Virus record (IMG/VR): IMGVR_UViG_2802429219_000004
Origin: a virus
Lineage: Duplodnaviria > Heunggongvirae > Uroviricota > Caudoviricetes
Strand: one strand, 5' to 3'
DNA length: 26,470 bases
A model generated the notes under the pieces. That model was given only the letters and a program-made list of their open reading frames with translations. It ran no database searches and was not told the origin of the DNA. Made by a program: the position numbers and the translations under genes. Positions 12,233 through 25,810 of this stretch are shown here, piece after piece; positions within the stretch are counted from its first letter, which is position 1; the number at the start of each line of letters is the position of its first letter.

Positions 12233-12245
12233 CCTGAACCAGGAA

Positions 12246-13754: not shown

Positions 13755-13966
13755 CAGAACCTCGCCAGCCGGTACCCGGGATGCCCCCGTCGTCGTGTAA
13801 TCAGAGCCGCAAGGCGGCGCTCCCACTCCTGCCGTCCCTGCCGGATCTCAGATAAGTTTTCCATGGTCATCTGCTGACCATTAAAAGTGACGGATTTTCC
13901 GTCCAGCACCGCCATTTCAGCTTCCGTATAACGCTGAATCATGGCTTCAATATCATTCTGATTCAT
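13754..13966 (-). CDS. W: Head-tail connector / DNA stabilisation protein (gpW-like)
   Basis: About 70-aa ORF ending RRRGHPGYRLARF, like the lambda W C-terminus. Its ATG at 13966 overlaps the terL stop (ATGA). Lies between terL and portal as in lambda. Confidence 0.7.
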   Translation of the reverse strand: MNQNDIEAMIQRYTEAEMAVLDGKSVTFNGQQMTMENLSEIRQGRQEWERRLAALITRRRGHPGYRLARF

Positions 13967-15075
13967 AACCATCCTCCGGAAGTCAGCCAGGGGTTAACAT
14001 CGTCAGTTACTGTTTTCTTCCGTTTTTGTTTTTTAACAGGCGTGGGTACCGGTTCCGGTGAGGGTGACGGTTCGGTACTGTCCGGGACACACTCCAGCCA
14101 GGTTTCCCGGCTCGCCCACTCCGGTGCATCCGGCCAGCGGATCTTTTCGTATCCATGCAGAATGACCAGCGCCTCGGCATACACCATCAGGTCAAAAGCT
14201 TCGTTGGCACCGCGACCCGGCTTACTCCATTTCCCGTCACTGCTCCGCTCTTCATACGTCAGTTCGTCGTAAAACCAGCTCCCCAGCCAGTCAGGGAAAT
14301 GCACATAGCCTGGACCTGGCGAGTCACGCCATAACGCGTTATTCACCCGGTCTTTCAGGGCATCCGTCTGAAGAAGCCAGAGCGGCACATCACCTGCGGC
14401 CTGCGCCCGGCGGCCCGTTCGTCCGGTGTTATCAGGGAATGTACGGCTGATCAGTTTTGCGCGCCGGATGCTGTCGCCCTTAAACAGGTAAATACGTTTA
14501 CCAAGGCCATCACGACGGCAACGACGCCAGAATTTATAGGCATTATCAGTGACCCCGTCTTCACCGCCGGAGTCCACCGCCATTGCCATCAGTCGCATTT
14601 GTTGAGAAGGATCGGAGGCCAGCGGCCAGCTTTTATGAAAAACATCCGTCAGCAGGACATCCCAGTCTTCCGGATAGCTGGCCGGATCAATTCGCTGGCT
14701 CTCCCCGTCGCAGTCACTGCGCAATGACTGCGTGATGTTGTAACGATCAATAATCCAGCGTTCGCCACGGCTGCCATAGCCCGTTACCTGAACCACAAAA
14801 CGGCGATGACGTCCCGCCTGCACATCCACTGTCGCCACAAGGAAATTAACGCCATCCGGAACACTGCGGGAAGGAACTGGCTCTGCCCGCTGCTCAAGCA
14901 GTTCACTTTTTCGTTGCTCCATGCTGGCACGAGGAAGATAAGGCAATCCCCAGTCGGTGTTGATAACCGCCCTGAGTGTTTCTTCGCTTCCTGTCGCTTC
15001 ATACTCCTGTTCTGCAGTCAGTAATTTGTAAACCAGTTGCGCCCAGGTCTGATACGCAGCAGCTGGCCCTTCCAT
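13963..15075 (-). CDS. A: Terminase large subunit (gpA-like), C-terminal segment of a gene split by island insertion
   Basis: 370-aa ORF directly upstream of W and portal. Resembles the lambda gpA C-terminal half (WIIDRY, GPGYVHFP, NEAFDLMVYAEAL). It begins exactly at the CATCCAG core; its first residues MEGPAAAYQTW continue in register from the ...ASFWM end of the fragment at 25811..26380. Confidence 0.8.
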   Translation of the reverse strand: MEGPAAAYQTWAQLVYKLLTAEQEYEATGSEETLRAVINTDWGLPYLPRASMEQRKSELLEQRAEPVPSRSVPDGVNFLVATVDVQAGRHRRFVVQVTGYGSRGERWIIDRYNITQSLRSDCDGESQRIDPASYPEDWDVLLTDVFHKSWPLASDPSQQMRLMAMAVDSGGEDGVTDNAYKFWRRCRRDGLGKRIYLFKGDSIRRAKLISRTFPDNTGRTGRRAQAAGDVPLWLLQTDALKDRVNNALWRDSPGPGYVHFPDWLGSWFYDELTYEERSSDGKWSKPGRGANEAFDLMVYAEALVILHGYEKIRWPDAPEWASRETWLECVPDSTEPSPSPEPVPTPVKKQKRKKTVTDDVNPWLTSGGWL

Positions 15076-15082
15076 CCAGGAA
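15073..15082. repeat. Left attachment-site core (attL): CATCCAG followed by GAA
   Basis: CATCCAG at 15073..15079 is identical to 25814..25820. Flanking bases are partly conserved (CCCT upstream, AA downstream). Sits exactly at the break point of the terL reading frame. Confidence 0.65.
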
Positions 15083-15384
15083 GAAGTAAATAAAAGGTAA
15101 CTAAATGATTATAAGGTACTATTGAGTTATGCCCCCTACAACATAGTCCCAGATTTAGTACCTGCTTAAGCGATAAAAAAGCAAAAAAGGAAGCAATATT
15201 AATTATTGCCGCTATGCATGATCACAATGACAAATCAGAGGCGGAATTCCGCTCTCGGAACTCACATATGAGAAACGATATTTCTTCCACCGATACCCTT
15301 TATTTGGGTATCGCAAGTAAGCCCCAAAATCTGGGTGTTACTCTTACTACCCAAACTACGGGTAGTTTCCGTAATTTCATGGTC

Positions 15385-15404
15385 GAGTTGCAGATCTGCA
15401 ACTC
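15385..15404. promoter_or_regulatory. Perfect 20-bp palindrome GAGTTGCAGATCTGCAACTC in the island arm next to attL
   Basis: Exact reverse-complement symmetry read from the sequence. Lies in the roughly 370-bp non-coding arm between orf95 and the attL core. Candidate protein-binding site; function unknown. Confidence 0.4.
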
Positions 15405-15449
15405 ACCCACCAGCCAACGCACTTTTGCGCTATCAGGAATATCAACAAA

Positions 15450-15737
15450 TTACCGCCGCAACCATTCCGGCTTCTTCCACTGATAAGTATTTTTCGCGCT
15501 CTCCCTCCGTTGTTGAGAACGGCGACGGTATGCCAGCAACTCAAGGACTCTGGTTCGTATGTTGCGCATATCCACGCCGTTAAGCTCAATACCGTCACGG
15601 CGCATCACCTCAGCCACCACACGCGCGTAATTTTCAGCGGTGACTGTATCCGGCTGCGCGGCCTGTTCGTCAGCCAACTGGCTAATTCCACCAGCACAGC
15701 GGATTAATCGCAGTATTTCAGATTCGGTCATTATCAT
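15450..15737 (-). CDS. Hypothetical protein (95 aa), translationally coupled to terS
   Basis: ATG at 15737 overlaps the terS stop (ATGA). N-terminus SEILRLIRCAGGISQL weakly resembles the N-terminus of lambda gpA as I remember it. Function unknown. Confidence 0.5.
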   Translation of the reverse strand: MIMTESEILRLIRCAGGISQLADEQAAQPDTVTAENYARVVAEVMRRDGIELNGVDMRNIRTRVLELLAYRRRSQQRRESAKNTYQWKKPEWLRR

Positions 15738-16219
15738 GCCTGTTTTGCGACCTCATTCACTACGTCATTTTTTACCATCCGGCTGATAATCTGATTACAC
15801 AAATCGTCAATAATTGACTGCACTCTGTTTACTGCCATCGGTTTAAGCCCAACATCACGTGCCAGAATACTGGGGAGTTTTTCCAGTTCCTCGCTTACGA
15901 TTTCTCCCCATATAGCCATCTCTTTTCGCACATCATCGGCGGGTATGAGTTGCGCCGTTTCCTGTTCGAACTTGAGGCGCTCACGTTCGGACTGATACCA
16001 GGCCTTACGGTCGTGTGGCTCCATTTCTTCCAGTGATGCCGGAACGGGAAGATCAAGAAAACAGGTCAGAATGTCAGTCACCCGATAGAGTTTCAGCTTG
16101 TCATGTCCTCCGGCTGGCTGGATATTTTTCAGCCTTGCCGCCGCAGTCTGGCGACATATTCCCGCTATCGCCGCCAGCTGGTTAATGTTCAGCATCAGAT
16201 TTTTCAGTTCCCGATCCAT
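15734..16219 (-). CDS. Terminase small subunit (Nu1-like), island-encoded
   Basis: ORF 15734..16276 trimmed to ATG at 16219 (MDRELKNLMLNINQLAAIAGICRQTAAARL), with a GGAG SD 6 nt upstream. N-terminal HTH resembles lambda Nu1 (NKKQLADIFGASIRTIQNW). Lies immediately downstream of cos-like repeat 1, as Nu1 follows cos in lambda. Confidence 0.75.
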   Translation of the reverse strand: MDRELKNLMLNINQLAAIAGICRQTAAARLKNIQPAGGHDKLKLYRVTDILTCFLDLPVPASLEEMEPHDRKAWYQSERERLKFEQETAQLIPADDVRKEMAIWGEIVSEELEKLPSILARDVGLKPMAVNRVQSIIDDLCNQIISRMVKNDVVNEVAKQA

Positions 16220-16372
16220 ACCCGCTCCAGAATGTTTTAAAAATGCATCTTGCAAATATCTTTTAAAAAAGGTCAAAAAACGCGCTGCATGTTGAACACA
16301 AAATAAGCAAAATTAACATACCAAAAATAAAAACACTTAAAATTCAATATAATAGAAAGATGATGATGACGA

Positions 16373-16445
16373 ATGAAAATGCAAAAACTAGCCTTTTTCC
16401 GCGCCGCTCCCGCCCCGTGGCAGGTCACTACACCGGGAGGACCCG
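16373..16445 (-). other. cos-like element, copy 1 (cosQ/cosN-like), upstream of island terS
   Basis: Minus-strand reading ATGGGTCCTCCCGGTG...CACGGGGCGGGAGCGTCGCGG resembles lambda cosQ (GGGTCCTTTCCGGTG) and cosN (GGGCGGCGACCT, then CGCGG), with 34 versus 35 nt spacing. 70/73 identical to copy 2 at 18908..18980. Confidence 0.55.
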
Positions 16446-16470
16446 TAAAAAAAGGCGGCTATCGCCGCCC
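16446..16470 (-). terminator. Intrinsic terminator after the island capsid gene
   Basis: Hairpin GGCGGC-tatc-GCCGCC (16454..16469) followed on the minus strand by a run of 7 T, starting a few nt after the capsid stop codon at 16477. Confidence 0.6.
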
Positions 16471-16476
16471 TTGTTG

Positions 16477-18390
16477 TCATGCTCCACTCGATTTCAGTAA
16501 TCCGCGATAGTCGAGGGCCGCGACACCTGCATCTATGCGCACCTTCCAGGCGACGCCATCAACAGTAAATCCCTCCTGCTCCTCAAGATATGGCGTATCA
16601 ATACCATCAAGATAAGCGACCTCTATCGTGTCCATCCCCTTCGCCGCTGCCACATACCACTCCTTGTTATTGGCTTTATCAAGACGCGGCTCGACGATAA
16701 CCTCTGCCATATCTTTCACCGCGTTAATGATGCCGGGGTTCTGATTGATAGTGCCTCCACCATCAATCGGAAAGAGTGATGACGATGACAGAATGGCGCG
16801 ATGTGCGGCAGACTCCAGCGCAGCAGGGACCAGAACAAAAGCGGGGGTAATATTCAGGGAGTCGCCGTTGGCATCCTCCTGTAATCGCATCAGCTTACGG
16901 GCTTCGTTAAGCCCCTCCATGTCCATATCCTTCGCAATAAGATTTTTATGATCGGCATGGAATAACGCTTTACCATCCGTAAATTTGCCGTTGCTGGTTA
17001 ACAGAAGATAAACCAGATTACCTACTGTTCTGGCGGCCGCACGCCCCATCGCCATGGGGATTGTAGTTAACTGGGTCAGGTCATCGTTGATAATGGCCTG
17101 ACGGGTAACAGAAAAAATATTACCGTATGTGGCCAGCGCAATAGGTACACCTTTATCGCTGGTGGTGATGTATTTATATTCCGCACCTTCCGGTACTTTA
17201 TCCAGCTTTGAAAAACCATTCAGACCAACGCGCTTTGCTTCATGAAAGTTTGAAAGCGATCCGGTACGCGTCCATTTCTGGAACGTTTCGCCGCTGTCCT
17301 GCCAGCCTTTCAGCACTGACTTTTCAGCACCACCAGCCAGAATATGAGAAAAATCGCTGCTGCTGTGTGTGAAAGCTGCATTAACGACCTGCGAGCGATT
17401 TAAAAAACTGCCAACACTGATACCACGATCAGTTAGTGATGCCTGGGCCATTTCAAAAAGGCTCATCATCGCATAAGGATTTCCCCGCTCTGGGCGTTCA
17501 TACCCGAGACGAGAATAAAGCCCCTGACGAATTGCATCGCCTGTTATGTTCCCGTTACCGGCATAAATATGAGTCGGGATATTTTTATTGGATGGCGTGG
17601 ACTCGCGCCCCAGCTCGTTCAACAACTTTTCACGGGCCATCTCCGGTGTACATGATGCATCCTCCAGGCACGCCATTTTGATCCCGTCGTAACGACTGCC
17701 GAACAGGCTAAACACTTCACTTATTCCGTTGATGCGCTTCTGTTCATTACCAGCAATATTGGCTGCTCCCTGTGGCGGGATAATCATTCCTTTAATGGTT
17801 TCCGGCATGTGTGAAAAATCTCCTGTGCGTTTCGATTCAATTCGCGCCATTGCTGTGACAGATGGCAACAATTCATCAGCAAAACCGTGCTTAAGGCATT
17901 CTTTCCCGTCCATCCAGGTTTCATCTTCCAGCATGGCGGTAATTTCCTGTGCTGATTTGCCCGTTTTTCTGGCATAAGCAGGGACTAACACGGTTTCCAC
18001 CTTATCCAGCAAATCAGCATAATCACGCATATCACCAGCATTTCCGCCAGAGATACCCCACGGCTTATGTATCATCATCATGGCGTTTTCCGGCATCACA
18101 ACACGATCGCCAGCCATTGCGACAACCGAAGCCATTGAAGCCGCAACACCATCGATATAAACCGTAATTTCTGCCGGATGATTCCGTAACAGGTTATAGA
18201 TGGCGATGCCTTCAAACACGTCACCACCTGGCGAATGGATCCGCAGGTCGATATGTGAGACATCGCCCAGGGCTTTCAGGTCTTCCGCAAACTTCTTCGC
18301 GGTAATACCGAAGCCGCCAATTTCTTCATAGATGGATATTTCTGCCGCTCCGCGAACACCCAGCGCCTTAATGGTGTACCAGTGATTCAT
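16477..18390 (-). CDS. Prohead protease (ClpP/S49-like) fused to major capsid protein, island paralog
   Basis: 637-aa ORF with ATG at 18390. Has the same SPGGDVFEGIAIYNLL protease motif and capsid C-terminus (TIEVAYLDGIDTPY) as the helper gene at 10274..12232, but is diverged elsewhere. Confidence 0.85.
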   Translation of the reverse strand: MNHWYTIKALGVRGAAEISIYEEIGGFGITAKKFAEDLKALGDVSHIDLRIHSPGGDVFEGIAIYNLLRNHPAEITVYIDGVAASMASVVAMAGDRVVMPENAMMMIHKPWGISGGNAGDMRDYADLLDKVETVLVPAYARKTGKSAQEITAMLEDETWMDGKECLKHGFADELLPSVTAMARIESKRTGDFSHMPETIKGMIIPPQGAANIAGNEQKRINGISEVFSLFGSRYDGIKMACLEDASCTPEMAREKLLNELGRESTPSNKNIPTHIYAGNGNITGDAIRQGLYSRLGYERPERGNPYAMMSLFEMAQASLTDRGISVGSFLNRSQVVNAAFTHSSSDFSHILAGGAEKSVLKGWQDSGETFQKWTRTGSLSNFHEAKRVGLNGFSKLDKVPEGAEYKYITTSDKGVPIALATYGNIFSVTRQAIINDDLTQLTTIPMAMGRAAARTVGNLVYLLLTSNGKFTDGKALFHADHKNLIAKDMDMEGLNEARKLMRLQEDANGDSLNITPAFVLVPAALESAAHRAILSSSSLFPIDGGGTINQNPGIINAVKDMAEVIVEPRLDKANNKEWYVAAAKGMDTIEVAYLDGIDTPYLEEQEGFTVDGVAWKVRIDAGVAALDYRGLLKSSGA

Positions 18391-18596
18391 TGCTCACCCC
18401 CAGATGCAAAACCATTCTTATCAAGCCACGCGTTAACTGCGTGTCTGACAATCTGCGCCGCACCTGGTAATGGTTGGTCAGGATGATGATTTATGTGGTC
18501 GATCCTGTACTGCTTAAGGCGCATAACGGTCTGCGCATCCAGATGAACGGAACCACCTTTTACCTCGCCTGTGTTCAGGTCGTTAATACAATTCAC
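18387..18596 (-). CDS. Hypothetical small protein (69 aa), translationally coupled to the island capsid gene
   Basis: GTG start at 18596 preceded by AAGAGGAAG. Its stop overlaps the capsid ATG (ATGA). Predicted strand-helix-helix pattern (SVHLDAQTVMRLKQYRIDH...AAQIVRHAVNAWLDKNG) suggests a ribbon-helix-helix fold. The helper has no equivalent gene upstream of its capsid gene. Confidence 0.5.
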   Translation of the reverse strand: MNCINDLNTGEVKGGSVHLDAQTVMRLKQYRIDHINHHPDQPLPGAAQIVRHAVNAWLDKNGFASGGEQ

Positions 18597-18696
18597 AGTA
18601 ACTTCCTCTTACTGACTAAACTGCGCGCATTATTGATCGATAAAAGTGGTAGATAAACATATTTCTATCATAAAAATAGATTAATCAGATTCAGAC

Positions 18697-18721
18697 ACAA
18701 AAAAGCCGGAGAGAATCCGGC
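18697..18721 (-). terminator. Intrinsic terminator between cos-like copy 2 and the small-protein/capsid operon
   Basis: Hairpin GCCGGA-gagaa-TCCGGC (18705..18721) followed on the minus strand by TTTTTTGTG. Confidence 0.5.
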
Positions 18722-18907
18722 ATAAATATCCCGCCATCTGAACACGTTTTGCACAGGCAACTCCATCTGGCAGGTGAAAAACCAATTTATTTATATATTT
18801 CAATTAATTGCAAACTGGTCTAATGACAGGGAGAAAAAAATATTGTACAGGTGAAAACAGAAATAATTTTTAATTATCAATAAATTATCACACATGCTGC
18901 CGCCGCC

Positions 18908-18980
18908 ATGAAAATGCAAAAACCAGCCTTTTTCCGCGACGCTCCCGCCCCGTGGCAGGTCACTACACCGGGAGGACCCA
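18908..18980 (-). other. cos-like element, copy 2
   Basis: 70/73 identical to copy 1, same orientation, 2535 bp away. Directly follows the ssb terminator. Sequence flanking the 73-bp core differs from copy 1. Confidence 0.55.
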
Positions 18981-19003
18981 TAAAAAAGCCGGATTGCTCC
19001 GGC
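18981..19003 (-). terminator. Intrinsic terminator after ssb
   Basis: Hairpin GCCGGA-ttgc-TCCGGC (18988..19003) followed on the minus strand by TTTTTTA, downstream of the ssb stop at 19020. Confidence 0.6.
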
Positions 19004-19019
19004 TTCTGTTACTCGTTGC

Positions 19020-19442
19020 TTAAAACGGTATTTCATCCCCGTACGGATCATCATTTCCCGCCTGTTGTTTTGCCCTGTTCAGTGCGTCAGTGACCTGCCC
19101 CAGTTGGCCTTTTTTACCACCTGGTCGCGCCGTTCTGGCACTGATTACACTGTCTGCGATAACCTGCCAGCCCTGCCGTATTTCGCCGTTCTGGCCTGTC
19201 CACTGGTTCACCTGCATGTTACCAGCCACGCTCAGGAGTTCCCCCTTGCGGTGCTTTGCCAGCGCTTCGGCCTGCCTGCCAAATGCCAAGACGGATAACC
19301 ACATCGTCGCCGTTCCGTCATCTGCCTGGCTGCATGGCAGCGGGACCGCCATACTCGCCATTGCCATTTGTGTACCCTTGCTGGTGGTCTTTAACTGCGG
19401 GTCATTTGCCAGCCGCCCGTAAGCTGCTATCTGTGCTGTCAT
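19020..19442 (-). CDS. ssb: Single-stranded DNA-binding protein (SSB-like)
   Basis: 140-aa ORF with an OB-fold-like core (MWLSVLAFGRQAEALAKHRKGELLSVAGNMQVNQWT) and an acidic C-terminal tail ending DDPYGDEIPF, like the SSB DDDIPF tip. ATG overlaps the stop of the upstream orf81. Confidence 0.7.
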   Translation of the reverse strand: MTAQIAAYGRLANDPQLKTTSKGTQMAMASMAVPLPCSQADDGTATMWLSVLAFGRQAEALAKHRKGELLSVAGNMQVNQWTGQNGEIRQGWQVIADSVISARTARPGGKKGQLGQVTDALNRAKQQAGNDDPYGDEIPF

Positions 19443-19684
19443 GCTGTCTGCTCTCCGGACTTAATGTTGATGGTTGTCACTTCCTCCGCTTCGGCAATCT
19501 CCCGTTCGGTCAGTGTGGCAAAGTTTGCAGCTGCCGTTGTCATGAATGCGCTAATCAGTTCGGGATGTGCTTTCGCATATCCTTCCCCGGCGTTGCGGTC
19601 GATGATTTTTATCGACACCCTTAACCAGTGTTCCGTCAAATCAAGAGCGTGCGATTGTGTTTTTTTTGTGTGCTTCGCTGTCAT
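19439..19684 (-). CDS. Hypothetical protein (81 aa) between the origin and ssb
   Basis: ATG at 19684; translationally coupled to ssb. No recognisable motif. Confidence 0.45.
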   Translation of the reverse strand: MTAKHTKKTQSHALDLTEHWLRVSIKIIDRNAGEGYAKAHPELISAFMTTAAANFATLTEREIAEAEEVTTINIKSGEQTA

Positions 19685-19735
19685 AGGCTTTATCTCACAG
19701 CAATAAATTAAAATTTTTGTATTTTAACTCTTCAT

Positions 19736-19958
19736 CTGTTCACCTTTTTATATTTTCCCTTTCAATTCAAAATGTTAAGTGGTGAACAGTTTCACAAAAA
19801 CTATTCACCGACTGTTCACCACTGTTCACCCTTAAAGATCGATAAATAATCAAAAAGGTGAACAGTGAATAGTTTAGTGAACAGTTCATAAATAACTGTT
19901 CACCCTATAATATACTGATATAAAAGATATTTATGACAGGGTGAACAGTGGTGAACAG
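19736..19958. repeat. Putative replication origin: iteron array of GTGAACAG in AT-rich DNA
   Basis: Nine perfect 8-mers in both orientations: GTGAACAG at 19782, 19858, 19877, 19941, 19951 and CTGTTCAC at 19736, 19812, 19822, 19896, often extended to GGTGAACAGT. Lies immediately 3' of the primase/helicase gene, as in SaPI/PICI origins. Confidence 0.65.
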
Positions 19959-19971
19959 TTATTCCATAAGT

Positions 19972-21831
19972 TTAATTTTTGCTATCGTCATTAGTGACCG
20001 ATACACATGATGGCATCCAGTCTTCTGATTCCTCCGTCAGGGTCACGTTTGAACGCAAACCGTGCTTCGTTTTCCGTTTCATATACTCCCTGCCATATTC
20101 CGCCATTGCCCCCGGCATATCTTTACCGAAGCGCGTCAGTGTTACAGGTTTACCAAACCCATGTGCCCTCATATAAGCCAGATAGGCATGATAGAGATAC
20201 CTGCGTGGGCTGAATGGCACAATTTCAGCATTACCCACTAACAGGCCATCACACATTACCGATGCCATGAGATAGCCGCAGAAGTCCACCAGCGAATCCC
20301 CCTCTCGCTTTATCGCCAGTGCTTCTTCAGATTTCTGCTGCTCATATAACAGGCGTCTGGCTTCGTCCTGATCAGCAAATCGTGTAAGCAGATGACGAAT
20401 CACTACCGCCAACTCACCTTCTATTTTTTCCGCCAGCATCGAATCGCGTTCGTTCTCCGGTACAACTTCCGAAAAATTGAATATCACCCGACGACGTGAG
20501 ATCCCCCCGCTGCGATCACTGAATGACATGGCGTTATTGTTAACCGCCAGCACTACTGCCGGAATACGCGTTGAATAGGGGGCTTTGTGTTTCGGGTCAA
20601 TTGCCACCTTGTCACCGCCTGTAATGGCCTTAATCCCTGCCCCATCACCAGCGTAGCGGGTCATATCCGGCATGATAATCAGCGAAAAGCCAACCACTAA
20701 CGCGCGTTCCCTTGCGTCTTCCAGCGCCTTCATGCTTGCTGATACTGTATTAGCCTTACCCGCCAGCATGGTGCAAATCTCCGCCATCACGCTTTTACCG
20801 CTTCCCCCCGGCCCTGTTACCTCAATGAATAACTGCCAGTCGTACCGGTTCGCCAGCACCATGAATAATGCCGCCAGTACACGATCTGCCTTGCGGTCAT
20901 TCTCAGCCACCGAACGGCGCAACCACTTCCAGAAATTCGGCGCATGTGTTGCCAGCGTTTCCCCCTCTGCTGGTGGGCTGAACGGTAATTCACTGGCAAT
21001 TAACAACCAGTCATTTTTGTTATGCTTCCGAAAATTACCTGTCCGGGTATCAAATACCCCGTTACTGAATCCAATCAGGTTACGGGCTGTATTCCCCATC
21101 ACAGGCAAGCTTAACTTCATGGTATCGACCGCCGATTTAATGGCGTTCTGCGAATAGCTGATCTCCGCATCAATGAAAATCTGCGCCATAGCACGCTGTA
21201 ACTCTTTATCCTGTACTGGCTCCCATACAACGCCGTTGTAATGGTGAACAGTGTCAGAGTCGGCATGAATCGCCAGTTCACCGCCATAACGTGCTAGGAG
21301 GACTTCACCGCGTTGACTTGCTCCCATCTGGTTAAGCGCCAGTGATGAAGCCTTATCGTCTTTTATCCGCTCTTTTTTCTTTACAGGCAGTTCAACTACT
21401 TTTTTACTTTCTGCTAATTCCCTGCTGCTCATAACCAGACTTTCTCCGCGTTCATATTCAGCTTTCAGCCCGGCAAGGCGCGGCGACCAGTCCTCCGGCG
21501 ATTCCTTATCTGCAAAGCTCCGCCAACAACGTGCATTTTGCACACCAGCAACTGCAAGTAAGGTGGCGATCTGCGTAAGACTGCGCTCTGTGATATGTCC
21601 TGCGCAATAAATGCGTACACATTCACGACCATCATCAATGATCCGGTAGTCGGTGATGTTTTTCAGTTGCTCATCAGCCAGCACAACAGGCGGCACGTTG
21701 TCGGCAGCAATATGTTTACCTGCCCACTCCTGCCACTCTTTCGCATGGCTCCACGCATCACTACCCGCAAAGATGATTACCTCTGTCAGTCTGTCGCGTG
21801 GCTGTTTTTTTAAGTTCGGTGCAAGCTTCAT
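19972..21831 (-). CDS. Replication initiator: primase/helicase (D5-N-like plus SF3/P-loop helicase)
   Basis: 619-aa ORF with Walker A GPGGSGKS and a Walker B-like LIIMPD. Size and position (upstream of the iterons) fit a PICI/P4-type Pri-Rep. ATG overlaps the stop of the upstream 99-aa ORF. Confidence 0.8.
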   Translation of the reverse strand: MKLAPNLKKQPRDRLTEVIIFAGSDAWSHAKEWQEWAGKHIAADNVPPVVLADEQLKNITDYRIIDDGRECVRIYCAGHITERSLTQIATLLAVAGVQNARCWRSFADKESPEDWSPRLAGLKAEYERGESLVMSSRELAESKKVVELPVKKKERIKDDKASSLALNQMGASQRGEVLLARYGGELAIHADSDTVHHYNGVVWEPVQDKELQRAMAQIFIDAEISYSQNAIKSAVDTMKLSLPVMGNTARNLIGFSNGVFDTRTGNFRKHNKNDWLLIASELPFSPPAEGETLATHAPNFWKWLRRSVAENDRKADRVLAALFMVLANRYDWQLFIEVTGPGGSGKSVMAEICTMLAGKANTVSASMKALEDARERALVVGFSLIIMPDMTRYAGDGAGIKAITGGDKVAIDPKHKAPYSTRIPAVVLAVNNNAMSFSDRSGGISRRRVIFNFSEVVPENERDSMLAEKIEGELAVVIRHLLTRFADQDEARRLLYEQQKSEEALAIKREGDSLVDFCGYLMASVMCDGLLVGNAEIVPFSPRRYLYHAYLAYMRAHGFGKPVTLTRFGKDMPGAMAEYGREYMKRKTKHGLRSNVTLTEESEDWMPSCVSVTNDDSKN

Positions 21832-22127
21832 TTTTTGCCCCTGAATGCGTTAATCATGCTTTTCATTTTCTGGATATTTCCCCGCACTTTTTCCCTGCTG
21901 GTGGGTTTACTGCGGGGCGCAGCATGTACCAGGGAAAAATCACGCCGGAATTGATAAACAGGCATCACGCAATCATATTCGTAACCTTCACGGCGGTAGG
22001 TGATGCGCCGTTCTGCCACGCCTTTAATCGTTACCGTACCGCCGTAGTTATCACGGAAAATATCGCCGGGGCGGATTTCAGGCCGAGAGAAGTCACTGGC
22101 AGTAAAGCCAGAATTTTTCTTTTTCAT
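21828..22127 (-). CDS. Hypothetical protein (99 aa)
   Basis: ATG at 22127; stop overlaps the primase ATG. Basic C-terminus. Function unknown. Confidence 0.45.
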   Translation of the reverse strand: MKKKNSGFTASDFSRPEIRPGDIFRDNYGGTVTIKGVAERRITYRREGYEYDCVMPVYQFRRDFSLVHAAPRSKPTSREKVRGNIQKMKSMINAFRGKK

Positions 22128-22132
22128 GGTTT

Positions 22133-22333
22133 TTATTTTCCTGTCAGTGATTCAAGTTTTATTCCGGCACGAATACAGGCCTCAGAAAAAAAAGCCAGAG
22201 AACCAACAACCTCATTATTTCTAAGGCGGCATTGTGATTTCACTTTCCCTTTATCGAGAAATATCAAAACGCGTCCCGTATAATCTGACGGCACATTAAG
22301 AACTACAGGTAAGTGCGCTTCATAATTGTGCAT
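22133..22333 (-). CDS. Hypothetical protein (66 aa)
   Basis: ATG at 22333. Part of the same minus-strand operon leading into the primase gene. Confidence 0.4.
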   Translation of the reverse strand: MHNYEAHLPVVLNVPSDYTGRVLIFLDKGKVKSQCRLRNNEVVGSLAFFSEACIRAGIKLESLTGK

Positions 22334-22529
22334 GCTGCGCCCCCTGACGAATACAGGCAGTGAATACCATCACGCAGCCAACCGTGGATTGCTGGCGGAC
22401 TTCCTGTTCGCTGGTGGCCTCGATGTGAATCACGCGCGGTTGTGCGGTGCTCAGGGCGATAAAACGCCAGATGTATTTATTCAGGTTGTGCGAGTCCCGC
22501 CCTTGCGGGTGTGTGGTATGATTTAACAT
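22320..22529 (-). CDS. Hypothetical protein (69 aa), first gene of the replication operon
   Basis: ORF 22320..22895 trimmed to ATG at 22529 (MLNHTTHPQG...), preceded by a GAGGT SD. The track's long N-terminal extension is antisense to the plus-strand cargo gene and is rejected. Confidence 0.4.
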   Translation of the reverse strand: MLNHTTHPQGRDSHNLNKYIWRFIALSTAQPRVIHIEATSEQEVRQQSTVGCVMVFTACIRQGAQHAQL

Positions 22530-22624
22530 AGCTACCTCGATACTGTTGCTATCGTTGGTGGTTAGACGCCCTGCATGTGTTCCAGCACTGCGGGGCGTTG
22601 CGTTATTAAATGCACACGTGTTAA

Positions 22625-22669
22625 TGTGTACACCTATCGAATGAAAACATAACGCTATAGGTGTACACA
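22625..22669 (+). promoter_or_regulatory. Operator-like inverted repeat upstream of the Arc-like gene
   Basis: Perfect 13-bp inverted repeat TGTGTACACCTAT (22625..22637) and ATAGGTGTACACA (22657..22669), 19 bp apart. Each arm contains the palindrome GTGTACAC. The right arm abuts the ATG at 22669. Confidence 0.5.
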
Positions 22670-22863
22670 TGTCAACAATAATTAAACGCGATAAAAAACC
22701 CAAAGGGACAGGAAAGGCTCCCCCTTTCCATATGCGTATAGCTCCAGAACTGAAAGAACAGTTTGATAGCGAGGCTAATAATGATGGTGTAAGCCTTGCT
22801 AACTGGCTTAAAGAGTTAGGGCGCTCCGAACTAAAGCGGCGCGGTATCGAACCTAAGGGGTGA
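22669..22863 (+). CDS. Arc/MetJ-like ribbon-helix-helix DNA-binding protein (64 aa)
   Basis: Basic N-terminal tail, then a strand-helix-helix pattern (PPFHMRIAPELKEQFDSEANNDGVSLANWLKELGR) reminiscent of Arc/Mnt repressors. Opposite strand to the rest of the island; AT-rich. Confidence 0.55.
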   Translation: MSTIIKRDKKPKGTGKAPPFHMRIAPELKEQFDSEANNDGVSLANWLKELGRSELKRRGIEPKG

Positions 22864-22894
22864 ATTACTACTTCTATGATAGGATATATTAACA

Positions 22895-23338
22895 ATGAAG
22901 AGATTTAGAACAATATTACTGAAAATACTCGGTGCAAAAACATCCATTGCCATATTATGTGTTTTTTGTGGAGCAAGCTTTTTGTTCGGCCAATATCTTA
23001 ATGATATGAATCTATTCGCCAGCTCAGGTGCAATTATTTCAGTTTTTGGATTGTTGTATACAATCAAGTTCACAACTTTAAAAAAATTATCTAATCGCGA
23101 AGCTGAAATTAATTCACGCAGTGGCGTAACTGGCCCGCCATTGTCTGCGGAAGAATCACAAAAGATACGAGAAGAAAACTTAGCTAAAGCTCGAGTTGAG
23201 GTCAGAGAGGAAATAAAAGCTGAAGTACTCGGGGTTGGACTAACTGTTTTTGGCACCATTATATGGGCATATGGCGGATACATAAAAATTATTCCATCCC
23301 TCGTAATGTGGATAAGACATTCATTGTTGATGCAATAG
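22895..23338 (+). CDS. Small membrane protein (147 aa): two N-terminal TM helices, a charged coiled-coil segment, one C-terminal TM helix
   Basis: Hydrophobic segments ILLKILGAKTSIAILCVFCGASFLF, AIISVFGLLYTIKF and VGLTVFGTIIWAYGGYIKII flank a charged stretch SAEESQKIREENLAKARVEVREEIKAEV. Markedly low-GC sequence. Followed by a plus-strand terminator. Confidence 0.55.
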   Translation: MKRFRTILLKILGAKTSIAILCVFCGASFLFGQYLNDMNLFASSGAIISVFGLLYTIKFTTLKKLSNREAEINSRSGVTGPPLSAEESQKIREENLAKARVEVREEIKAEVLGVGLTVFGTIIWAYGGYIKIIPSLVMWIRHSLLMQ

Positions 23339-23360
23339 AGAAAAATATAAAAATAAAACT

Positions 23361-23390
23361 GGCGACCACCTCGGTCGCCTTTACTTTTAT
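23361..23390 (+). terminator. Intrinsic terminator ending the plus-strand cargo cassette
   Basis: Hairpin GGCGACC-acctc-GGTCGCC (23361..23379) followed by TTTACTTTTAT. Confidence 0.6.
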
Positions 23391-23554
23391 CTAAAGTCCA
23401 ATTGATAAAATAAAGAACTGCAGCATCTATTCCTGCAAAACTTCATGCTTTCAGGACGGCTGCTCATATGTCATTTTTTAGCAGAAGATTTTGCCTTGCT
23501 GGTGGGGAGCTTCCCGGTTAACACGATGTATCGTATAATCAGCAATGCGCGTGG

Positions 23555-24136
23555 TTACTGAATACGCTCACCAAAGTAAAACTCAGGCTGATATTCACGT
23601 ATCAGCCTTTTTTCTTCTTCCTCCAGCTCACGCTTTTTGCGCTTACATGCCTGTAGCTCCCTCCCCTTCTCGCTGGCACTTATTTGATATTGCTCTTTAC
23701 GGCGGGAAAAATCCTGTAATGCACCCCACGGGATACCATAAGCCCCCGTTTTTCTGATACCTGGTATCACATTCCTGAATACCCAGTTACTGAAACGATG
23801 GGCGAACGTGCCAGGAGTAACAGCTTTGCGACTTCTGGCGATCAGCTTGTAAAAACCAGATTCAGAAACGACGCTATGATTTGGATTTCCGCGAATACCG
23901 TAGCTTAAAGCGACGGTATTCTTCTCATCCACATCCAGAGCTTTTAGAGCATCGCGTGAGTTGCTTATTTCCAGAGCTTCACAAACATCCTTTGCAATAA
24001 ACCACGGATCGCCGTTCAGATACACCACACGAACATCCACGCCATCAAAGCGCAGAACGACAAGATCACGAATATCGCAGAATTTTTTTACTGAACGAGC
24101 GTACCCCTTGCCCGTCACGGCAATATTTTTATTCAT
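23555..24136 (-). CDS. Bro-N domain protein (antirepressor-like)
   Basis: 193-aa ORF. N-terminal segment FDGVDVRVVYLNGDPWFIAKDVCEALEI matches the Bro-N signature. Charged, coiled-coil-like C-terminus. Confidence 0.7.
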   Translation of the reverse strand: MNKNIAVTGKGYARSVKKFCDIRDLVVLRFDGVDVRVVYLNGDPWFIAKDVCEALEISNSRDALKALDVDEKNTVALSYGIRGNPNHSVVSESGFYKLIARSRKAVTPGTFAHRFSNWVFRNVIPGIRKTGAYGIPWGALQDFSRRKEQYQISASEKGRELQACKRKKRELEEEEKRLIREYQPEFYFGERIQ

Positions 24137-24154
24137 CGTTTTTTACCTCACATA

Positions 24155-24181
24155 CAAAAAACCCCGCATTGCGTGCGGGGT
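24155..24181 (-). terminator. Intrinsic terminator between alpA and the Bro-N gene
   Basis: Hairpin CCCCGCA-ttgcg-TGCGGGG (24162..24180) followed on the minus strand by TTTTTTGT. Confidence 0.55.
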
Positions 24182-24194
24182 ATGAAAGATATTA

Positions 24195-24398
24195 TTAGTG
24201 GGGATTGGCCTGTTCTCGTTGTTTATCTAACCATGCCTCTACATCTCTACGGTGCCAGGTATGCCGCCGCCCAATTCTGAACGGTTGAGGAAAACCATTA
24301 TTTTCATCTTTCCAGAAATTGATGAATGCGCTCATTGCCCCATAGCGCAAAATTTTCATTACGTCTTTAGTAAATAAAATATCTTCATTGGTATTCAT
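24195..24398 (-). CDS. alpA: AlpA-family transcriptional regulator / excisionase-like protein
   Basis: 67-aa ORF immediately downstream of int. Has the AlpA-like pattern (KDVMKILRYG...FPQPFRIGRRHTWHRRDVEAWL). GGAG SD 8 nt upstream. Confidence 0.7.
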   Translation of the reverse strand: MNTNEDILFTKDVMKILRYGAMSAFINFWKDENNGFPQPFRIGRRHTWHRRDVEAWLDKQREQANPH

Positions 24399-24410
24399 TT
24401 GCTGAACTCC

Positions 24411-25649
24411 TCAACCATTTACTATTCTCAAACCTTTCTTACCACCGGATCTATTAATTACCCCTTTTCTCGCCTCATCAAAAAAATCTCCTACCCATTG
24501 CATCATAATTTTGCGTTGTTCTAAATAAGTAGTTCTATTATAAATATCTCTTATTTTATCACCACTTTTATGTGCTAATGCAGCCTCAATAACATCAGGG
24601 TTAAAACCCTCCTCATTTAAAAGCGTACTCCACATCGAACGAAAACCGTGTAACGTTACAATCCCTTTGAACTTGCTGGCAGCAATTGGGGTATTGATAG
24701 TATTCTTTCCCATAGGAGCATCTTTTGTTCTGGAGGAAAAAAATATATAACGCCCTCTTTTTATTTCCTGCATTGTTCTTAGGATTCTAATAGCCTGTGA
24801 TGAGAGAGGCACAACATGTTCACGATGGCATTTCATTTTATGCGCGGGGATAATCCACAAGCCAGAATCAAAATCAATCTCGGACCACTCTGCTTTAATC
24901 GCCTCACCTGGCCTGACCATTGTCAATATCTGGAATAAAAGTGCATTGTGAGCTATTTGATACTTATGAGGCACACTATCCCACCAACTCAGAAATTCAG
25001 GCAATCTTTCAACAGGTAGTGCAGCTAATGATTTATTTTTCTTTCCTGTGAATGCAGTTTTTATCTTAAGTAATGGATTCGTTTTCAATGCTCCACAATT
25101 TACAGCGTAATTCATAATTTCATTTAATCTTGATATTAATTTTTTTTGCAACGCATTCTTATCGGATACGGCATCCAGAGCATTAATAGCTACTGGCGCT
25201 GTAATTTTCTCTATGCTGTACTTACCAAAGAAAGGAACAAGATATTTGTATACTTCATATTCGATATTATACAGCGTAGGTTTCCGCAATTCCGATCCCT
25301 TTTTAAAAGCGATCCATGCATTAGCAACAGCTTCAAATGTTTGTAGATTTTTTAGTGACATCTCAATTTTACGATTTTTCTTCTCTGTCACTGGATCAAC
25401 TCCACGTGCAATCATTCGCCGAAGTTCATCACGTACTTCCCGTGCTTCCGCGAGTGAGAATTCAGGAAAACGCCCTATCGTGTATGTCTGCCGTTTCTTC
25501 GTTATCGGATGGCTATAACGGAAACGCCACACTTTCCCACCAGCTTTACTCACATTCAGCAATAAACCGAACCCATCATAAACGGCATAGTCCTTTTCAC
25601 GTGGTTTCATTCCCTTAACTTCAGTCACAGTTAATGGCTTTACCGGCAT
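24411..25649 (-). CDS. int: Tyrosine integrase, P4 / CP4-57 type
   Basis: 412-aa ORF. N-terminal arm-binding-type region (LTVTEVKGMKPREKDYAVYDGFGLLLNVSKAGGKVWRFRY) and C-terminal catalytic region with HGFRSMWSTLL and a downstream His/Tyr. Start lies about 160 bp from the attR core. Confidence 0.9.
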   Translation of the reverse strand: MPVKPLTVTEVKGMKPREKDYAVYDGFGLLLNVSKAGGKVWRFRYSHPITKKRQTYTIGRFPEFSLAEAREVRDELRRMIARGVDPVTEKKNRKIEMSLKNLQTFEAVANAWIAFKKGSELRKPTLYNIEYEVYKYLVPFFGKYSIEKITAPVAINALDAVSDKNALQKKLISRLNEIMNYAVNCGALKTNPLLKIKTAFTGKKNKSLAALPVERLPEFLSWWDSVPHKYQIAHNALLFQILTMVRPGEAIKAEWSEIDFDSGLWIIPAHKMKCHREHVVPLSSQAIRILRTMQEIKRGRYIFFSSRTKDAPMGKNTINTPIAASKFKGIVTLHGFRSMWSTLLNEEGFNPDVIEAALAHKSGDKIRDIYNRTTYLEQRKIMMQWVGDFFDEARKGVINRSGGKKGLRIVNG

Positions 25650-25810
25650 CTATCGCCCTCATTTTTTAGTCCGTCATGTAGTCCTTTCAAGTCGATAACA
25701 AGCGATAAACTAACTCATTATCAAGTAAAGAGAGGAAACACAAAAAATCACAACTCATTGAAAAGACTACAAAACGACACCAGAACATAAAAACAGGTAA
25801 GAAATGTACC

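What the first reader, a model, noticed from the sequence alone, without database searches (positions are those of the whole stretch)
19736..19958. Iteron-type replication origin immediately 3' of the primase/helicase gene
Nine exact copies of GTGAACAG in both orientations within about 220 bp of AT-rich DNA, directly after the primase/helicase stop codon at 19972. This is the arrangement of rep-adjacent origins in SaPIs and PICIs and supports autonomous replication of the island after excision.
Basis: seen in the sequence. Interest (0 to 1): 0.5.

Follow-up and report, generated by a model that had tools for sequence, protein, structure and literature searches.

The report
P4-type iteron origin of a phage satellite
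The repeats are real and are almost certainly the replication origin of a small phage satellite lodged inside a prophage's terminase gene, using the same 8-base protein-binding site as satellite phage P4; this is a well-described kind of origin, so it is a clean example, not a discovery.

Summary
There are nine exact GTGAACAG at 19736-19958, against about 0.007 expected by chance. The real unit is ACTGTTCACC, with 8 perfect and 3 degenerate sites in DNA of 31% GC, starting 13 bp after the stop codon of the gene at 19972-21831(-).

TGTTCACC is the phage P4 "type I iteron". The adjacent protein ends in the P4 alpha origin-binding winged-helix domain (PDB 1KA8, E 2e-24).

The cluster consists of two inverted modules. 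Each has the site layout of P4 ori1 (0+ 10+ 54- 74+ 86+ 93+ against 0+ 10+ 54- 75+ 86+ 96+), and each encloses an AT-rich spacer of about 35 bp. The cluster sits where P4 has crr.

In 141 related loci the iterons lie only in the 400 bp after the stop codon. Iteron columns are conserved and spacers are not (85% against 55%). Lineages with a different C-terminal segment carry a different octamer on the same scaffold.

The experimentally validated EcCICFT073 PICI origin has the same synteny and scaffold. The host element is a 10.7-kb helper-embedded PICI splitting a lambdoid gpA gene.

This is a new member of a known kind, of low to moderate interest. One caveat: the "primase" has no detectable active primase domain.

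The parts
19857..19957 (-). Origin module A, next to the initiator stop codon. Six iterons at 19950(-), 19940(-), 19897(+), 19876(-), 19864(-) and 19857(-). Oriented like the initiator gene, the layout is 0+ 10+ 54- 74+ 86+ 93+.
   Evidence: The layout matches P4 ori1 (0+ 10+ 54- 75+ 86+ 96+). blastn gives 109 nt at 72.5% to P4 ori1.
19737..19830 (+). Origin module B, an inverted copy of module A. Five iterons at 19737(+), 19781(-), 19802(+, TATTCACC), 19813(+) and 19823(+). The outer site of the terminal pair is missing here but present in relatives such as L003.
   Evidence: There is a perfect 22-nt inverted repeat, 19811-19832 / 19938-19959. blastn gives 121 nt at 72.7% to P4 ori1.
19905..19939 (.). 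AT-rich spacer of about 35 bp inside module A, lying between convergent iterons. Candidate DNA-melting site.
   Evidence: GC about 25%. Its position is conserved but its sequence is not. [quoted passage not shown]
19745..19780 (.). AT-rich spacer of about 36 bp inside module B, lying between convergent iterons. Second candidate melting site.
19831..19856 (.). Central 26-bp spacer between the two inverted modules. It holds the only GATC in the region (19837).
19685..19735 (-). Distal flank, about 20-28% GC, with a conserved A/T tract (AAATTTTAATTT) after the last iteron and just upstream of the 81-aa ORF. A similar A/T tract follows each P4 crr unit.
19972..21831 (-). Initiator (619 aa, annotated 'DNA primase family protein'). 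Toprim-like N-terminal module (aa 1 to about 125), D5_N (176-305), SF3 helicase P-loop DUF5906 (339-447) and C-terminal winged-helix origin-binding domain (511-607).
   Evidence: 1KA8, E 1.9e-24; 50% identity to P4 alpha over aa 159-609; fold of the N-terminal module.
19439..19684 (-). Conserved 81-aa ORF of unknown function (phrog_1231), immediately downstream of the origin. Same position as the 85-aa ORF in EcCICFT073.
19020..19442 (-). Island-encoded single-stranded DNA-binding protein, part of the replication module.
   Evidence: PMC10111431 places Primase, SSB and the mapped ori together.
21828..22127 (-). DUF4222 gene whose end overlaps the initiator's start codon. Conserved upstream partner, also present in EcCICFT073.
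15073..25820 (-). The whole satellite, a helper-embedded PICI of 10,741 bp between two CATCCAG cores (15073-15079 and 25814-25820). It contains the integrase 24411..25649, an AlpA-like gene 24195..24398, a Bro-N anti-repressor 23555..24136, the replication module, a capsid/protease fusion 16477..18390 and a DUF1441 TerS-like gene 15734..16276.
13963..15075 (-). Distal (nuclease-domain) fragment of the helper prophage's terminase large subunit gpA, separated from its ATPase fragment (25811 to beyond 26326) by the island.
   Evidence: GpA_nuclease profile 6-294; GpA_ATPase profile 124-247 in 25811..26326; in-silico excision restores '..IASFWMEGPAAAYQTW..'.

Best explanation
The cluster at 19737-19957 is the replication origin of a 10.7-kb PICI-type phage satellite, and it is matched to the initiator encoded immediately upstream.

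Shown:
- The repeats are the P4 type I iteron TGTTCACC.
- The adjacent protein carries the P4-alpha-type C-terminal winged-helix origin-binding domain fused to an SF3 (D5-family) helicase.
- The 11 sites form two inverted modules. Each has a tandem iteron pair, an AT-rich spacer of about 35 bp, one inverted iteron and then a tandem triplet. The site-by-site layout is that of P4 ori1.
- This scaffold is conserved after the stop codon in relatives from many Enterobacterales.
- The iterons are under stronger constraint than the spacers.
- The octamer changes together with the C-terminal end of the initiator.

Inferred mechanism:
1. After induction of the helper prophage and expression of the island operon, initiator molecules bind the iterons through the winged-helix domain.
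2. Convergent sites on either side of each AT-rich spacer position SF3 helicase rings on, or melt, that spacer. The inverted two-module design suits head-to-head loading for bidirectional theta replication, as described for P4 and for D5-family helicases.
3. The island's own SSB, encoded just downstream, coats the unwound DNA.
4. Priming is probably by host DnaG, because no active primase domain is detectable.
5. The two adjacent modules may supply in compact form the two alpha-binding loci that P4 keeps 4.5 kb apart as ori1 and crr.
For: - Statistics of the repeat.
- Identity with P4's annotated 'ori type 1 repeat', and the positions of crr and ori1 relative to alpha.
- Initiator C-terminus matches PDB 1KA8 (P4 origin-binding domain, E 1.9e-24) and is 50% identical to P4 alpha over helicase plus origin-binding domain. 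P4 gp-alpha binds its origin via this wHTH (PMC4889955).
- Module layouts identical to P4 ori1 within 3 bp, and extended nucleotide alignments.
- In 141 loci, 4.94 plus 0.66 TGTTCACC per locus fall in the 0-400 bp after the stop. Only the coding-region bins at -1400 and -600 exceed 0.07 per 200-bp bin elsewhere between -6 kb and +4 kb.
- The layout is kept while the spacers diverge.
- Iteron columns are 84.7% conserved and spacer columns 55.2%, p = 9e-10.
- Whole-set switches to TGTCTAC, TGTCC[GA]C, TGTGCAC and TCTCTAC on the same scaffold, matching changes in the C-terminal segment.
- EcCICFT073 has the same synteny (DUF4222, pri, 288-bp gap, small ORF, SSB) and the same two-module scaffold. 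Its pri-ori segment maintained a ts plasmid, while delta-ori and delta-pri were impaired (PMC6092414).
- There is no second iteron cluster in the island.
Against: - Nothing here measures replication or binding. Function is inferred from homology, architecture and covariation.
- Among close relatives (85% or more) the whole intergenic region is 97-99% conserved, so iterons and spacers cannot be separated there (p = 0.17).
- In P4 the cluster at this position (crr) is an accessory cis element and not the initiation site, so position alone does not prove that initiation occurs here.
- EcCICFT073 uses TCTAC-type iterons without the 5-residue insertion seen in L009, L011 and L012. The mapping of specificity to that segment is therefore only approximate.
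- No DnaA, IHF or Fis consensus sites and no sigma-70 promoter or terminator were found, so host-factor involvement is unknown.
- The initiator lacks a demonstrable primase, which leaves the priming step unexplained.
Confidence: 0.85

Rival explanations
1. The cluster is a crr-like accessory element. The initiator binds it and it is needed in cis, as crr is in P4, but replication starts at another site in the island or in the surrounding helper prophage.
For: The cluster occupies exactly the position of P4 crr, immediately 3' of the alpha-type gene. The P4 crr units share the pair / AT spacer / inverted-site pattern and the terminal A/T tract. The HE-PICI paper notes that the composite may be replicated passively from the helper's origin.
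Against: No second iteron cluster exists anywhere in the island or within -6 to +4 kb in 141 relatives. The module layout matches ori1 more closely than crr. In EcCICFT073 the pri gene plus this region alone sufficed for plasmid maintenance (PMC6092414).
Confidence: 0.07
2. The repeats are mainly transcriptional operators. The initiator or another island regulator binds them to control read-through or expression of the downstream 81-aa, SSB and late genes, without origin function.
For: The cluster lies between co-oriented genes with no terminator, so transcription from the initiator operon must cross it. Iteron-binding initiators often autoregulate (general knowledge of iteron plasmids).
Against: No sigma-70-like promoter is detected on either strand. 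Eleven sites over 220 bp, with AT-rich spacers and the P4 ori1 layout, far exceed what an operator needs. The homologous EcCICFT073 region has demonstrated origin activity. A regulatory side-effect is not excluded and would be compatible with the main explanation.
Confidence: 0.05
3. The repeats are a packaging (cos/pac) or recombination site, or a chance low-complexity feature.
For: The region is AT-rich and repetitive, and satellites must carry the helper's packaging signals.
Against: The region has no similarity to helper DNA, whereas other island segments do (15789-16445, and a 72-nt piece at 18908-18979, match the helper's small-terminase-like gene and the DNA upstream of it). The att cores are at 15073 and 25814. 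Chance is excluded.
Confidence: 0.01

Closest known systems
Replication origin of Gram-negative PICIs, typified by EcCICFT073 (Fillol-Salom et al. 2018, ISME J, PMC6092414)
   Same: - Same synteny: DUF4222, pri-rep, a gap of about 288 bp, a small ORF, SSB.
- Same position, immediately 3' of the initiator gene.
- Same two-module scaffold of convergent iterons around AT-rich spacers (EcCICFT073: 0+ 9+ 58- 77+ 88+ 97+ | 131- 142- .. 210- 219-).
- Same initiator architecture: D5_N, DUF5906 and Pox_D5, with the same N-terminal module.

   Different: - The iteron is TGTTCACC here, against TGTCTACC/TATCTACC in EcCICFT073.
- The initiators are only 43% identical.
- The island here is embedded in a prophage terminase gene and not in a chromosomal site.
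- Origin function was tested for EcCICFT073 but not for this one.
Satellite phage P4 replicon: alpha protein with ori1 and crr (GenBank NC_001609 annotation; Yeo et al. 2002 for the origin-binding domain, PDB 1KA8)
   Same: - Identical type I iteron TGTTCACC, including the TATTCACC variant.
- Homologous helicase and C-terminal origin-binding domain (50% identity; 1KA8 E 2e-24).
- Each module has the ori1 site layout within 3 bp.
- The cluster sits where crr sits, right after the initiator gene.

   Different: - P4 has two separate loci 4.5 kb apart: one ori1 module, plus two direct crr units of a variant layout (0+ 9+ 53- 71- 84+). This island has a single locus with two inverted ori1-type modules.
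- P4 alpha has a Zn-ribbon and a Toprim primase (Pfam). This protein does not.
- The rest of the element is not P4-like: no sid, psu, delta or cnr homologues were found.
Helper-embedded PICIs (HE-PICI; PMC10111431, NAR Genom Bioinform 2023)
   Same: - An island of about 11 kb integrated in, and co-oriented with, a lambdoid late gene. Gene A is one of the four commonly targeted genes.
- It carries its own homologues of helper late genes.
- The order of zones is int, alpA, Bro zone, replication zone, late zone.
- The ori lies downstream of pri.

   Different: That paper does not analyse the origin sequence. Whether this integrase belongs to the 11capE clade was not tested here.
[quoted passage not shown]
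   Same: General logic only: the origin lies immediately 3' of the initiator gene, with two sets of iterons around an AT-rich stretch (as summarised in PMC6092414).
   Different: The initiator family and iteron sequences are unrelated. A sequence search does match the helicase core to a Gram-positive-type 'DNA primase' structure (7OLA, E 3e-10), but there is no shared origin-binding domain.

Membership tests
Gram-negative PICI replication origin | Located immediately 3' of the pri-rep (initiator) gene | tested here: met
   The first iteron is 13 bp after the stop codon at 19972-19974. The same holds in 141 relatives.
Gram-negative PICI replication origin | [quoted passage not shown] | tested here: met
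   Two inverted modules, each with convergent iterons around a spacer of about 35 bp at about 25% GC. The scaffold is the same as in EcCICFT073.
Gram-negative PICI replication origin | Host element is a PICI: about 10-20 kb, with int, alpA and pri, unidirectional, no tail or lysis genes of its own | tested here: met
   10,741 bp. It has an integrase, an AlpA-like gene (phrog_66, E 9e-7; Pfam only weak HTH_17), an initiator, an SSB, a capsid/protease fusion and a TerS-like gene, all on the minus strand. The AlpA assignment is weak.
Gram-negative PICI replication origin | Supports initiator-dependent autonomous replication | not testable with these tools
   This was shown only for the homologous EcCICFT073 segment (PMC6092414).
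P4 alpha / ori1-crr replicon | Type I iteron TGTTCACC | tested here: met
   The annotated repeats in the P4 record read TGTTCACC or one-mismatch variants. The window has 8 perfect and 3 variant sites.
P4 alpha / ori1-crr replicon | Initiator with SF3 helicase and C-terminal winged-helix origin-binding domain (1KA8) | tested here: met
   E 1.9e-24 over aa 511-607; 50% identity over aa 159-609; D5_N, DUF5906, Pox_D5.
P4 alpha / ori1-crr replicon | Two separate cis elements: ori1, and crr about 4.5 kb away | tested here: not met
   Only one cluster is present in the island and in relatives, from -6 to +4 kb.
P4 alpha / ori1-crr replicon | N-terminal DnaG-type primase (Zn ribbon plus Toprim) in the initiator | tested here: not met
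   [not shown]
P4 alpha / ori1-crr replicon | P4-like satellite gene set (sid, psu, delta, epsilon, cnr) | tested here: not met
   None of the island ORFs matches these families in Pfam or PHROGs. The gene upstream of the initiator is DUF4222, not the DUF5375/cnr-position gene of P4.
Helper-embedded PICI (HE-PICI) | Integrated within a prophage late gene and co-oriented with it; excision restores the gene | tested here: met
   The gpA ATPase fragment ends at 25811 and the nuclease fragment begins near 15075, both on the minus strand like the island. Joining at the CATCCAG cores gives a continuous reading frame. RefSeq annotates both halves as partial terminase genes in the 99.9%-identical record.
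Helper-embedded PICI (HE-PICI) | Integrase of the 11capE clade | not tested
   Only Pfam and PHROG family assignment was done.

The most novel reading that the evidence does not exclude
The compact origin (two inverted ori1-type modules at the crr position) could be the condensed equivalent, or the ancestral form, of P4's split ori1 plus crr. P4's long-puzzling need for a second, distant cis element would then simply reflect a requirement for two alpha-binding modules, for example to load two SF3 rings head-to-head.

Two further points go with this reading:
- The wholesale iteron switches (TGTTCACC, TGTCTACC, TGTCCRC, TGTGCACC, TCTCTACC) that track the initiator's C-terminal segment would define replication-specificity groups. 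These would let several satellites coexist in one cell, and would predict cross-activation between this island and P4.
- The initiator's N-terminal module would be a decayed Toprim that no longer primes, making these satellites dependent on host DnaG, unlike P4.
Probability: 0.3. Interest if true: 0.4.

Novelty: new member of a known kind. Interest (0 to 1): 0.25.

Why it matters
It gives a confident, base-level annotation of the origin and initiator-binding sites for a very common family of E. coli satellites. Related sequence occurs in 1,854 of 5,426 complete genomes.

It ties Gram-negative PICI origins to the biochemically characterised P4 alpha / type I iteron system. This predicts which satellites could cross-activate or compete for each other's initiators.

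It also provides a natural set of matched initiator/iteron variants for studying winged-helix specificity. Practically, such rep-ori cassettes are useful as small, specific replicons for engineered PICI or P4 delivery vehicles. None of this overturns current understanding.

Tried and rejected
- **Literature search for the octamer.** A full-text search for 'TGTTCACC' returned only unrelated primer sequences. Two searches failed because 'P4' is too short a term.
- **Close relatives.** An alignment of 44 distinct intergenic sequences from relatives at 85% or more was too conserved overall (97-99%) to separate iterons from spacers (p = 0.17). I replaced it with the 72-76% group.
- **Promoter, terminator and host-factor scans.** The promoter/terminator scan of 19300-20200 found no promoter and only one weak terminator-like site, in the SSB/81-aa gene overlap (19446-19460) outside the cluster. 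No DnaA-box, IHF, Fis or 13-mer consensus was found.
- **RNA families.** Rfam at gathering thresholds found nothing in the window, including the C4/isrK RNAs reported for some PICIs.
- **N-terminal module.** The single-sequence AlphaFold model was unusable (pLDDT 48), so I redid it with a 42-sequence alignment. The profile search against PDB sequences gave only non-significant Cas2 hits (E 0.07). hhalign against the P4 alpha Toprim region was negative.
- **Wing insertion hypothesis.** I proposed that a 5-residue insertion in the wing-like segment sets TCTAC specificity. EcCICFT073 weakens this, because it has TCTAC iterons without the insertion.
- **Terminase check.** tblastn of the CFT073 helper TerL against the window gave no hit. 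Contiguity of gpA was shown instead by Pfam profile coordinates and in-silico excision.
- **First CFT073 fetch.** It returned the helper prophage and not the PICI.
- **Packaging site.** This alternative was rejected because the region shares nothing with the helper.

Full report
**1. Observation**

The window contains 11 exact GTGAACAG, against 0.78 expected from dinucleotide shuffles; no shuffle reached 11. Nine lie at 19736-19958, five on the + strand and four on the - strand. From base composition, 0.007 would be expected in 223 bp, and no other 8-mer in the window clusters comparably.

The ORF 19972..21831(-) ends with its stop codon at 19972-19974, 13 bp from the nearest repeat. The intergenic region 19685-19971 is 31% GC and the inter-repeat spacers are 23% GC, against 51% for the window.

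Aligning the copies with their flanks shows that the conserved unit is ACTGTTCACC. Read as TGTTCACC there are eight perfect sites and three degenerate ones: TGTTCACT at 19876(-), TATTCACC at 19802(+) and TATTCACT at 19864(-).

**2. The neighbouring genes and the element**

The upstream ORF (619 aa) matches D5_N, DUF5906 (the SF3 helicase P-loop) and Pox_D5, and phrog_864 'DNA primase'. Downstream, in the same orientation, lie an 81-aa ORF and an SSB gene.

The window is E. coli chromosome, 99.9% identical to strain IMT16316 over this stretch. In that record's annotation the block from the integrase to a capsid/protease fusion and a DUF1441 gene sits between two partial terminase large-subunit genes of a lambdoid prophage.

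In the window:
- The gpA ATPase-domain fragment ends at 25811.
- The nuclease-domain fragment begins near 15075.
- Both junctions share a CATCCAG core, at 15073 and 25814.
- Deleting the 10,741 bp between the cores in silico gives a continuous reading frame, '..IASFWMEGPAAAYQTW..'.

The island and gpA are co-oriented on the minus strand. This is the published 'helper-embedded PICI' configuration, in which satellites related to Gram-negative PICIs integrate in lambdoid late genes A, B, C and E (PMC10111431).

**3. The repeat is the P4 type I iteron, and the protein carries the P4 origin-binding domain**

Residues 511-607 of the initiator match PDB 1KA8, deposited as 'putative P4-specific DNA primase', with E 1.9e-24. 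This is the P4 alpha origin-binding domain of Yeo et al. 2002, as cited. Residues 159-609 are 50% identical to P4 alpha.

The P4 GenBank record annotates sixteen 'ori type 1 repeats'. Extracted, they read TGTTCACC or one-mismatch variants, including TATTCACC. [quoted passage not shown]

The window's repeat is therefore the recognition sequence of a biochemically characterised homologue of the adjacent protein.

**4. Anatomy: two inverted ori1-type modules at the crr position**

In P4, crr ('cis required region') lies directly 3' of alpha, after its terminator. ori1 lies 4.5 kb away, upstream of the operon. By position, then, the window's cluster corresponds to crr.

By layout it corresponds to ori1. 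The table gives site starts with everything oriented like the initiator gene.

| Module | Layout |
|---|---|
| Window module A (19857-19957) | 0+ 10+ 54- 74+ 86+ 93+ |
| P4 ori1 | 0+ 10+ 54- 75+ 86+ 96+ |
| Window module B (19737-19830), reverse complement | 0+ 45- 65+ 76+ 86+ |
| P4 crr units | 0+ 9+ 53- 71- 84+ |

Module B has the same pattern as module A but lacks the outer site of the pair, which relatives such as L003 retain. The crr units are a variant of the pattern.

blastn aligns 121 nt and 109 nt of the window's cluster with ori1 at about 73% identity, against 62 nt with crr. A perfect 22-nt inverted repeat (19811-19832 / 19938-19959) reflects the inverted duplication.

Each module encloses an AT-rich spacer of about 35 bp between convergent iterons (19905-19939 and 19745-19780). 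Adjacent direct sites are 10-11 bp apart, about one helical turn.

**5. Comparative evidence for function**

I fetched 73 loci from species-representative genomes and 80 viral contigs encoding relatives of the initiator. In the 141 with a complete 3' end:
- TGTTCACC occurs 4.94 times per locus in the first 200 bp after the stop codon and 0.66 times in the next 200 bp.
- Between -6 kb and +4 kb only two other 200-bp bins exceed 0.07 per locus. Both lie in coding sequence: 0.37 at -1400 (a single conserved in-gene site) and 0.10 at -600.

There is therefore one cluster per element and no second ori1-like locus.

Close relatives are uninformative, because the whole gap is 97-99% conserved. In lineages at 72-76% protein identity (Raoultella, Kluyvera, Pluralibacter, Citrobacter, Klebsiella and the induced element 'phage' vB_KppS-Ant) the site layout is preserved while the spacers diverge. 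Iteron columns are 84.7% identical to the window and spacer columns 55.2% (Mann-Whitney p = 9e-10).

Other lineages keep the scaffold but replace the octamer at every site:
- TGTCTAC in L009, L011 and L012.
- TGTCC[G/A]C in Serratia.
- TGTGCAC in Proteus.
- TCTCTAC in Symbiopectobacterium.

The octamer type tracks the sequence of a short segment near the end of the 1KA8-like domain:
- '..KR[KH]TKxG[LIF][RQ][ST]N..' in all TGTTCAC loci, including P4-like proteins with a different N-terminus.
- Different 24-residue versions in the TGTCTAC and TGTCCRC loci.

EcCICFT073 uses TCTAC iterons with an uninserted but different segment. The segment is therefore a plausible specificity determinant, not a proven one.

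**6. Link to an experimentally validated origin**

I retrieved EcCICFT073 from the CFT073 chromosome. It has the same order (DUF4222, primase, 288-bp gap, 85-aa ORF, SSB). Its gap has the same two-module scaffold, built from TGTCTACC/TATCTACC (0+ 9+ 58- 77+ 88+ 97+ | 131- 142- .. 210- 219-). Its initiator is 43% identical to the window's.

Fillol-Salom et al. cloned exactly that pri-rep plus ori segment. It maintained a temperature-sensitive plasmid, while delta-ori and delta-rep derivatives were impaired. [quoted passage not shown]

The window's cluster is thus an architectural homologue of a tested origin, with a different and better characterised iteron.

**7. Mechanism**

Shown:
- Cognate-type DNA-binding domain and iterons.
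- Conserved two-module scaffold with AT-rich spacers.
- An SF3 helicase in the same polypeptide.
- An SSB gene adjacent.

Inferred: initiator molecules bind the iterons, and convergent sites bracket the AT-rich spacers where melting and helicase loading occur. The inverted arrangement would suit head-to-head loading and bidirectional replication. P4 replicates bidirectionally from ori1 (my recollection of the P4 literature, not retrieved here). A D5-family helicase-primase forms head-to-head double hexamers (title of PMC12137749).

Because P4 needs both ori1 and crr, the two adjacent modules may provide both alpha-binding loci in compact form. This is a hypothesis.

No DnaA, IHF or Fis consensus sites, promoters or terminators were found in the region. 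Transcription from the initiator operon presumably runs through the origin into the 81-aa and SSB genes.

**8. The 'primase' label**

P4 alpha has Zn_Ribbon_Prim and Toprim domains. The window protein and EcCICFT073 Pri-Rep have neither by Pfam.

The family's invariant residues include A22-G23 after strand 1 and A77-G78 after strand 3. Toprim enzymes normally have E-G and D-x-D at those places; this placement is my inference from the secondary structure, not a structural alignment. hhalign finds no similarity to the P4 Toprim region.

The module is also mosaic: 74% identity in proteins otherwise 97-100% identical. It also occurs fused to RepA/AAA_25-type helicases.

The most economical reading is a decayed or repurposed Toprim without primase activity, so priming would fall to host DnaG. 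This is tentative.

**9. Alternatives**

- **crr-like accessory element only.** Disfavoured by the absence of any second cluster and by the EcCICFT073 minimal-replicon result.
- **Purely regulatory operator.** Disfavoured by the absence of a promoter and by the ori1 architecture. A secondary regulatory effect is not excluded.
- **Packaging site.** Rejected. The region shares nothing with the helper, whereas the island's DUF1441 region and a 72-nt segment at 18908-18979 do match the helper's small-terminase-like gene and the DNA upstream of it.

**10. Verdict**

The feature belongs to a known, experimentally characterised kind (the Gram-negative PICI rep-adjacent iteron origin) in a known genomic configuration (HE-PICI).

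What this analysis adds:
- The iteron is the same as the P4 type I iteron.
- Each module has the same layout as P4 ori1.
- The design is two inverted modules at the crr position.
- Iteron type and the initiator's C-terminal segment co-vary across lineages.
- The initiator lacks a demonstrable primase.

These are useful refinements and not surprises. Novelty: new member of a known kind. Interest: 0.25.

Noticed in passing
window 15073-25820 (att cores CATCCAG at 15073-15079 and 25814-25820); gpA fragments 13963-15075(-) and 25811 to beyond 26326(-): The satellite is embedded in the terminase large-subunit gene (gpA) of a lambdoid prophage, between its ATPase and nuclease domains, and is co-oriented with it. 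In-silico excision restores the reading frame. This is the published HE-PICI configuration. In the 99.9%-identical strain IMT16316 the island's integrase is disrupted by IS1, whereas here it is intact (412 aa).
   Followed up: yes
[not shown]
   Followed up: partly
window 18908-18979 and about 16374-16445: A 72-nt island segment is 87.5% identical to helper DNA just upstream of the helper's DUF1441 (small-terminase-like) gene. The same helper segment also aligns upstream of the island's own DUF1441 gene. These could be two cos-like packaging sites in one satellite.
   Followed up: no
window 16477-18390(-) and 15734-16276(-), against the helper's 10274-12493(-): The island carries its own ClpP-protease/major-capsid fusion and its own DUF1441 TerS-like gene. 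The capsid/protease fusion is 64-69% nt identical to the helper's and the DUF1441 region about 72%. This fits late-gene capture from helpers as proposed for HE-PICIs.
   Followed up: partly
window 21243-21250(-), inside the initiator gene: A single exact TGTTCACC lies within the coding sequence and is conserved in about 52 relatives. From memory, P4 is reported to have a secondary origin (oriII) inside the alpha gene. Whether this site is anything more than coding-sequence conservation is unknown.
   Followed up: no
window 22627-22634(+) and 22660-22667(-): An inverted pair of TGTACACC (one mismatch from the iteron), 33 bp apart, lies in the regulatory (Bro/Icd-like) zone of the island. It could be an operator for a different regulator, or a chance match.
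   Followed up: no
locus L089 (IMG/VR UViG_2778261056_000007), position equivalent to window about 19830: One close relative has gained an extra 10-bp unit (GGTGAACAGT) in the triplet of module B. Iteron number therefore varies by whole-unit slippage.
   Followed up: no
window 19700-19722; the same position in L003-L012 and after each P4 crr unit: A conserved A/T tract (AAATTTTAATTT-like) follows the last iteron pair in all lineages and in P4 crr, just upstream of the small ORF. A short TGAATTT motif is also conserved inside the distal AT spacer. Their roles (bending, melting, promoter element) are unknown.
   Followed up: no
window 21828-22127(-): A DUF4222 gene overlaps the initiator's start codon, here and in EcCICFT073. 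It occupies the position that P4 gives to ORF106 (DUF5375; by my recollection this is cnr, the copy-number regulator that acts on alpha). The two are not homologous by Pfam, and a comparable regulatory role is only a guess.
   Followed up: no
E. coli genome collection: Sequence related to this replication module occurs in 1,854 of 5,426 complete E. coli genomes, with up to 10 places per genome. Satellites with this replicon type are therefore extremely common and often present in multiple copies.
   Followed up: no
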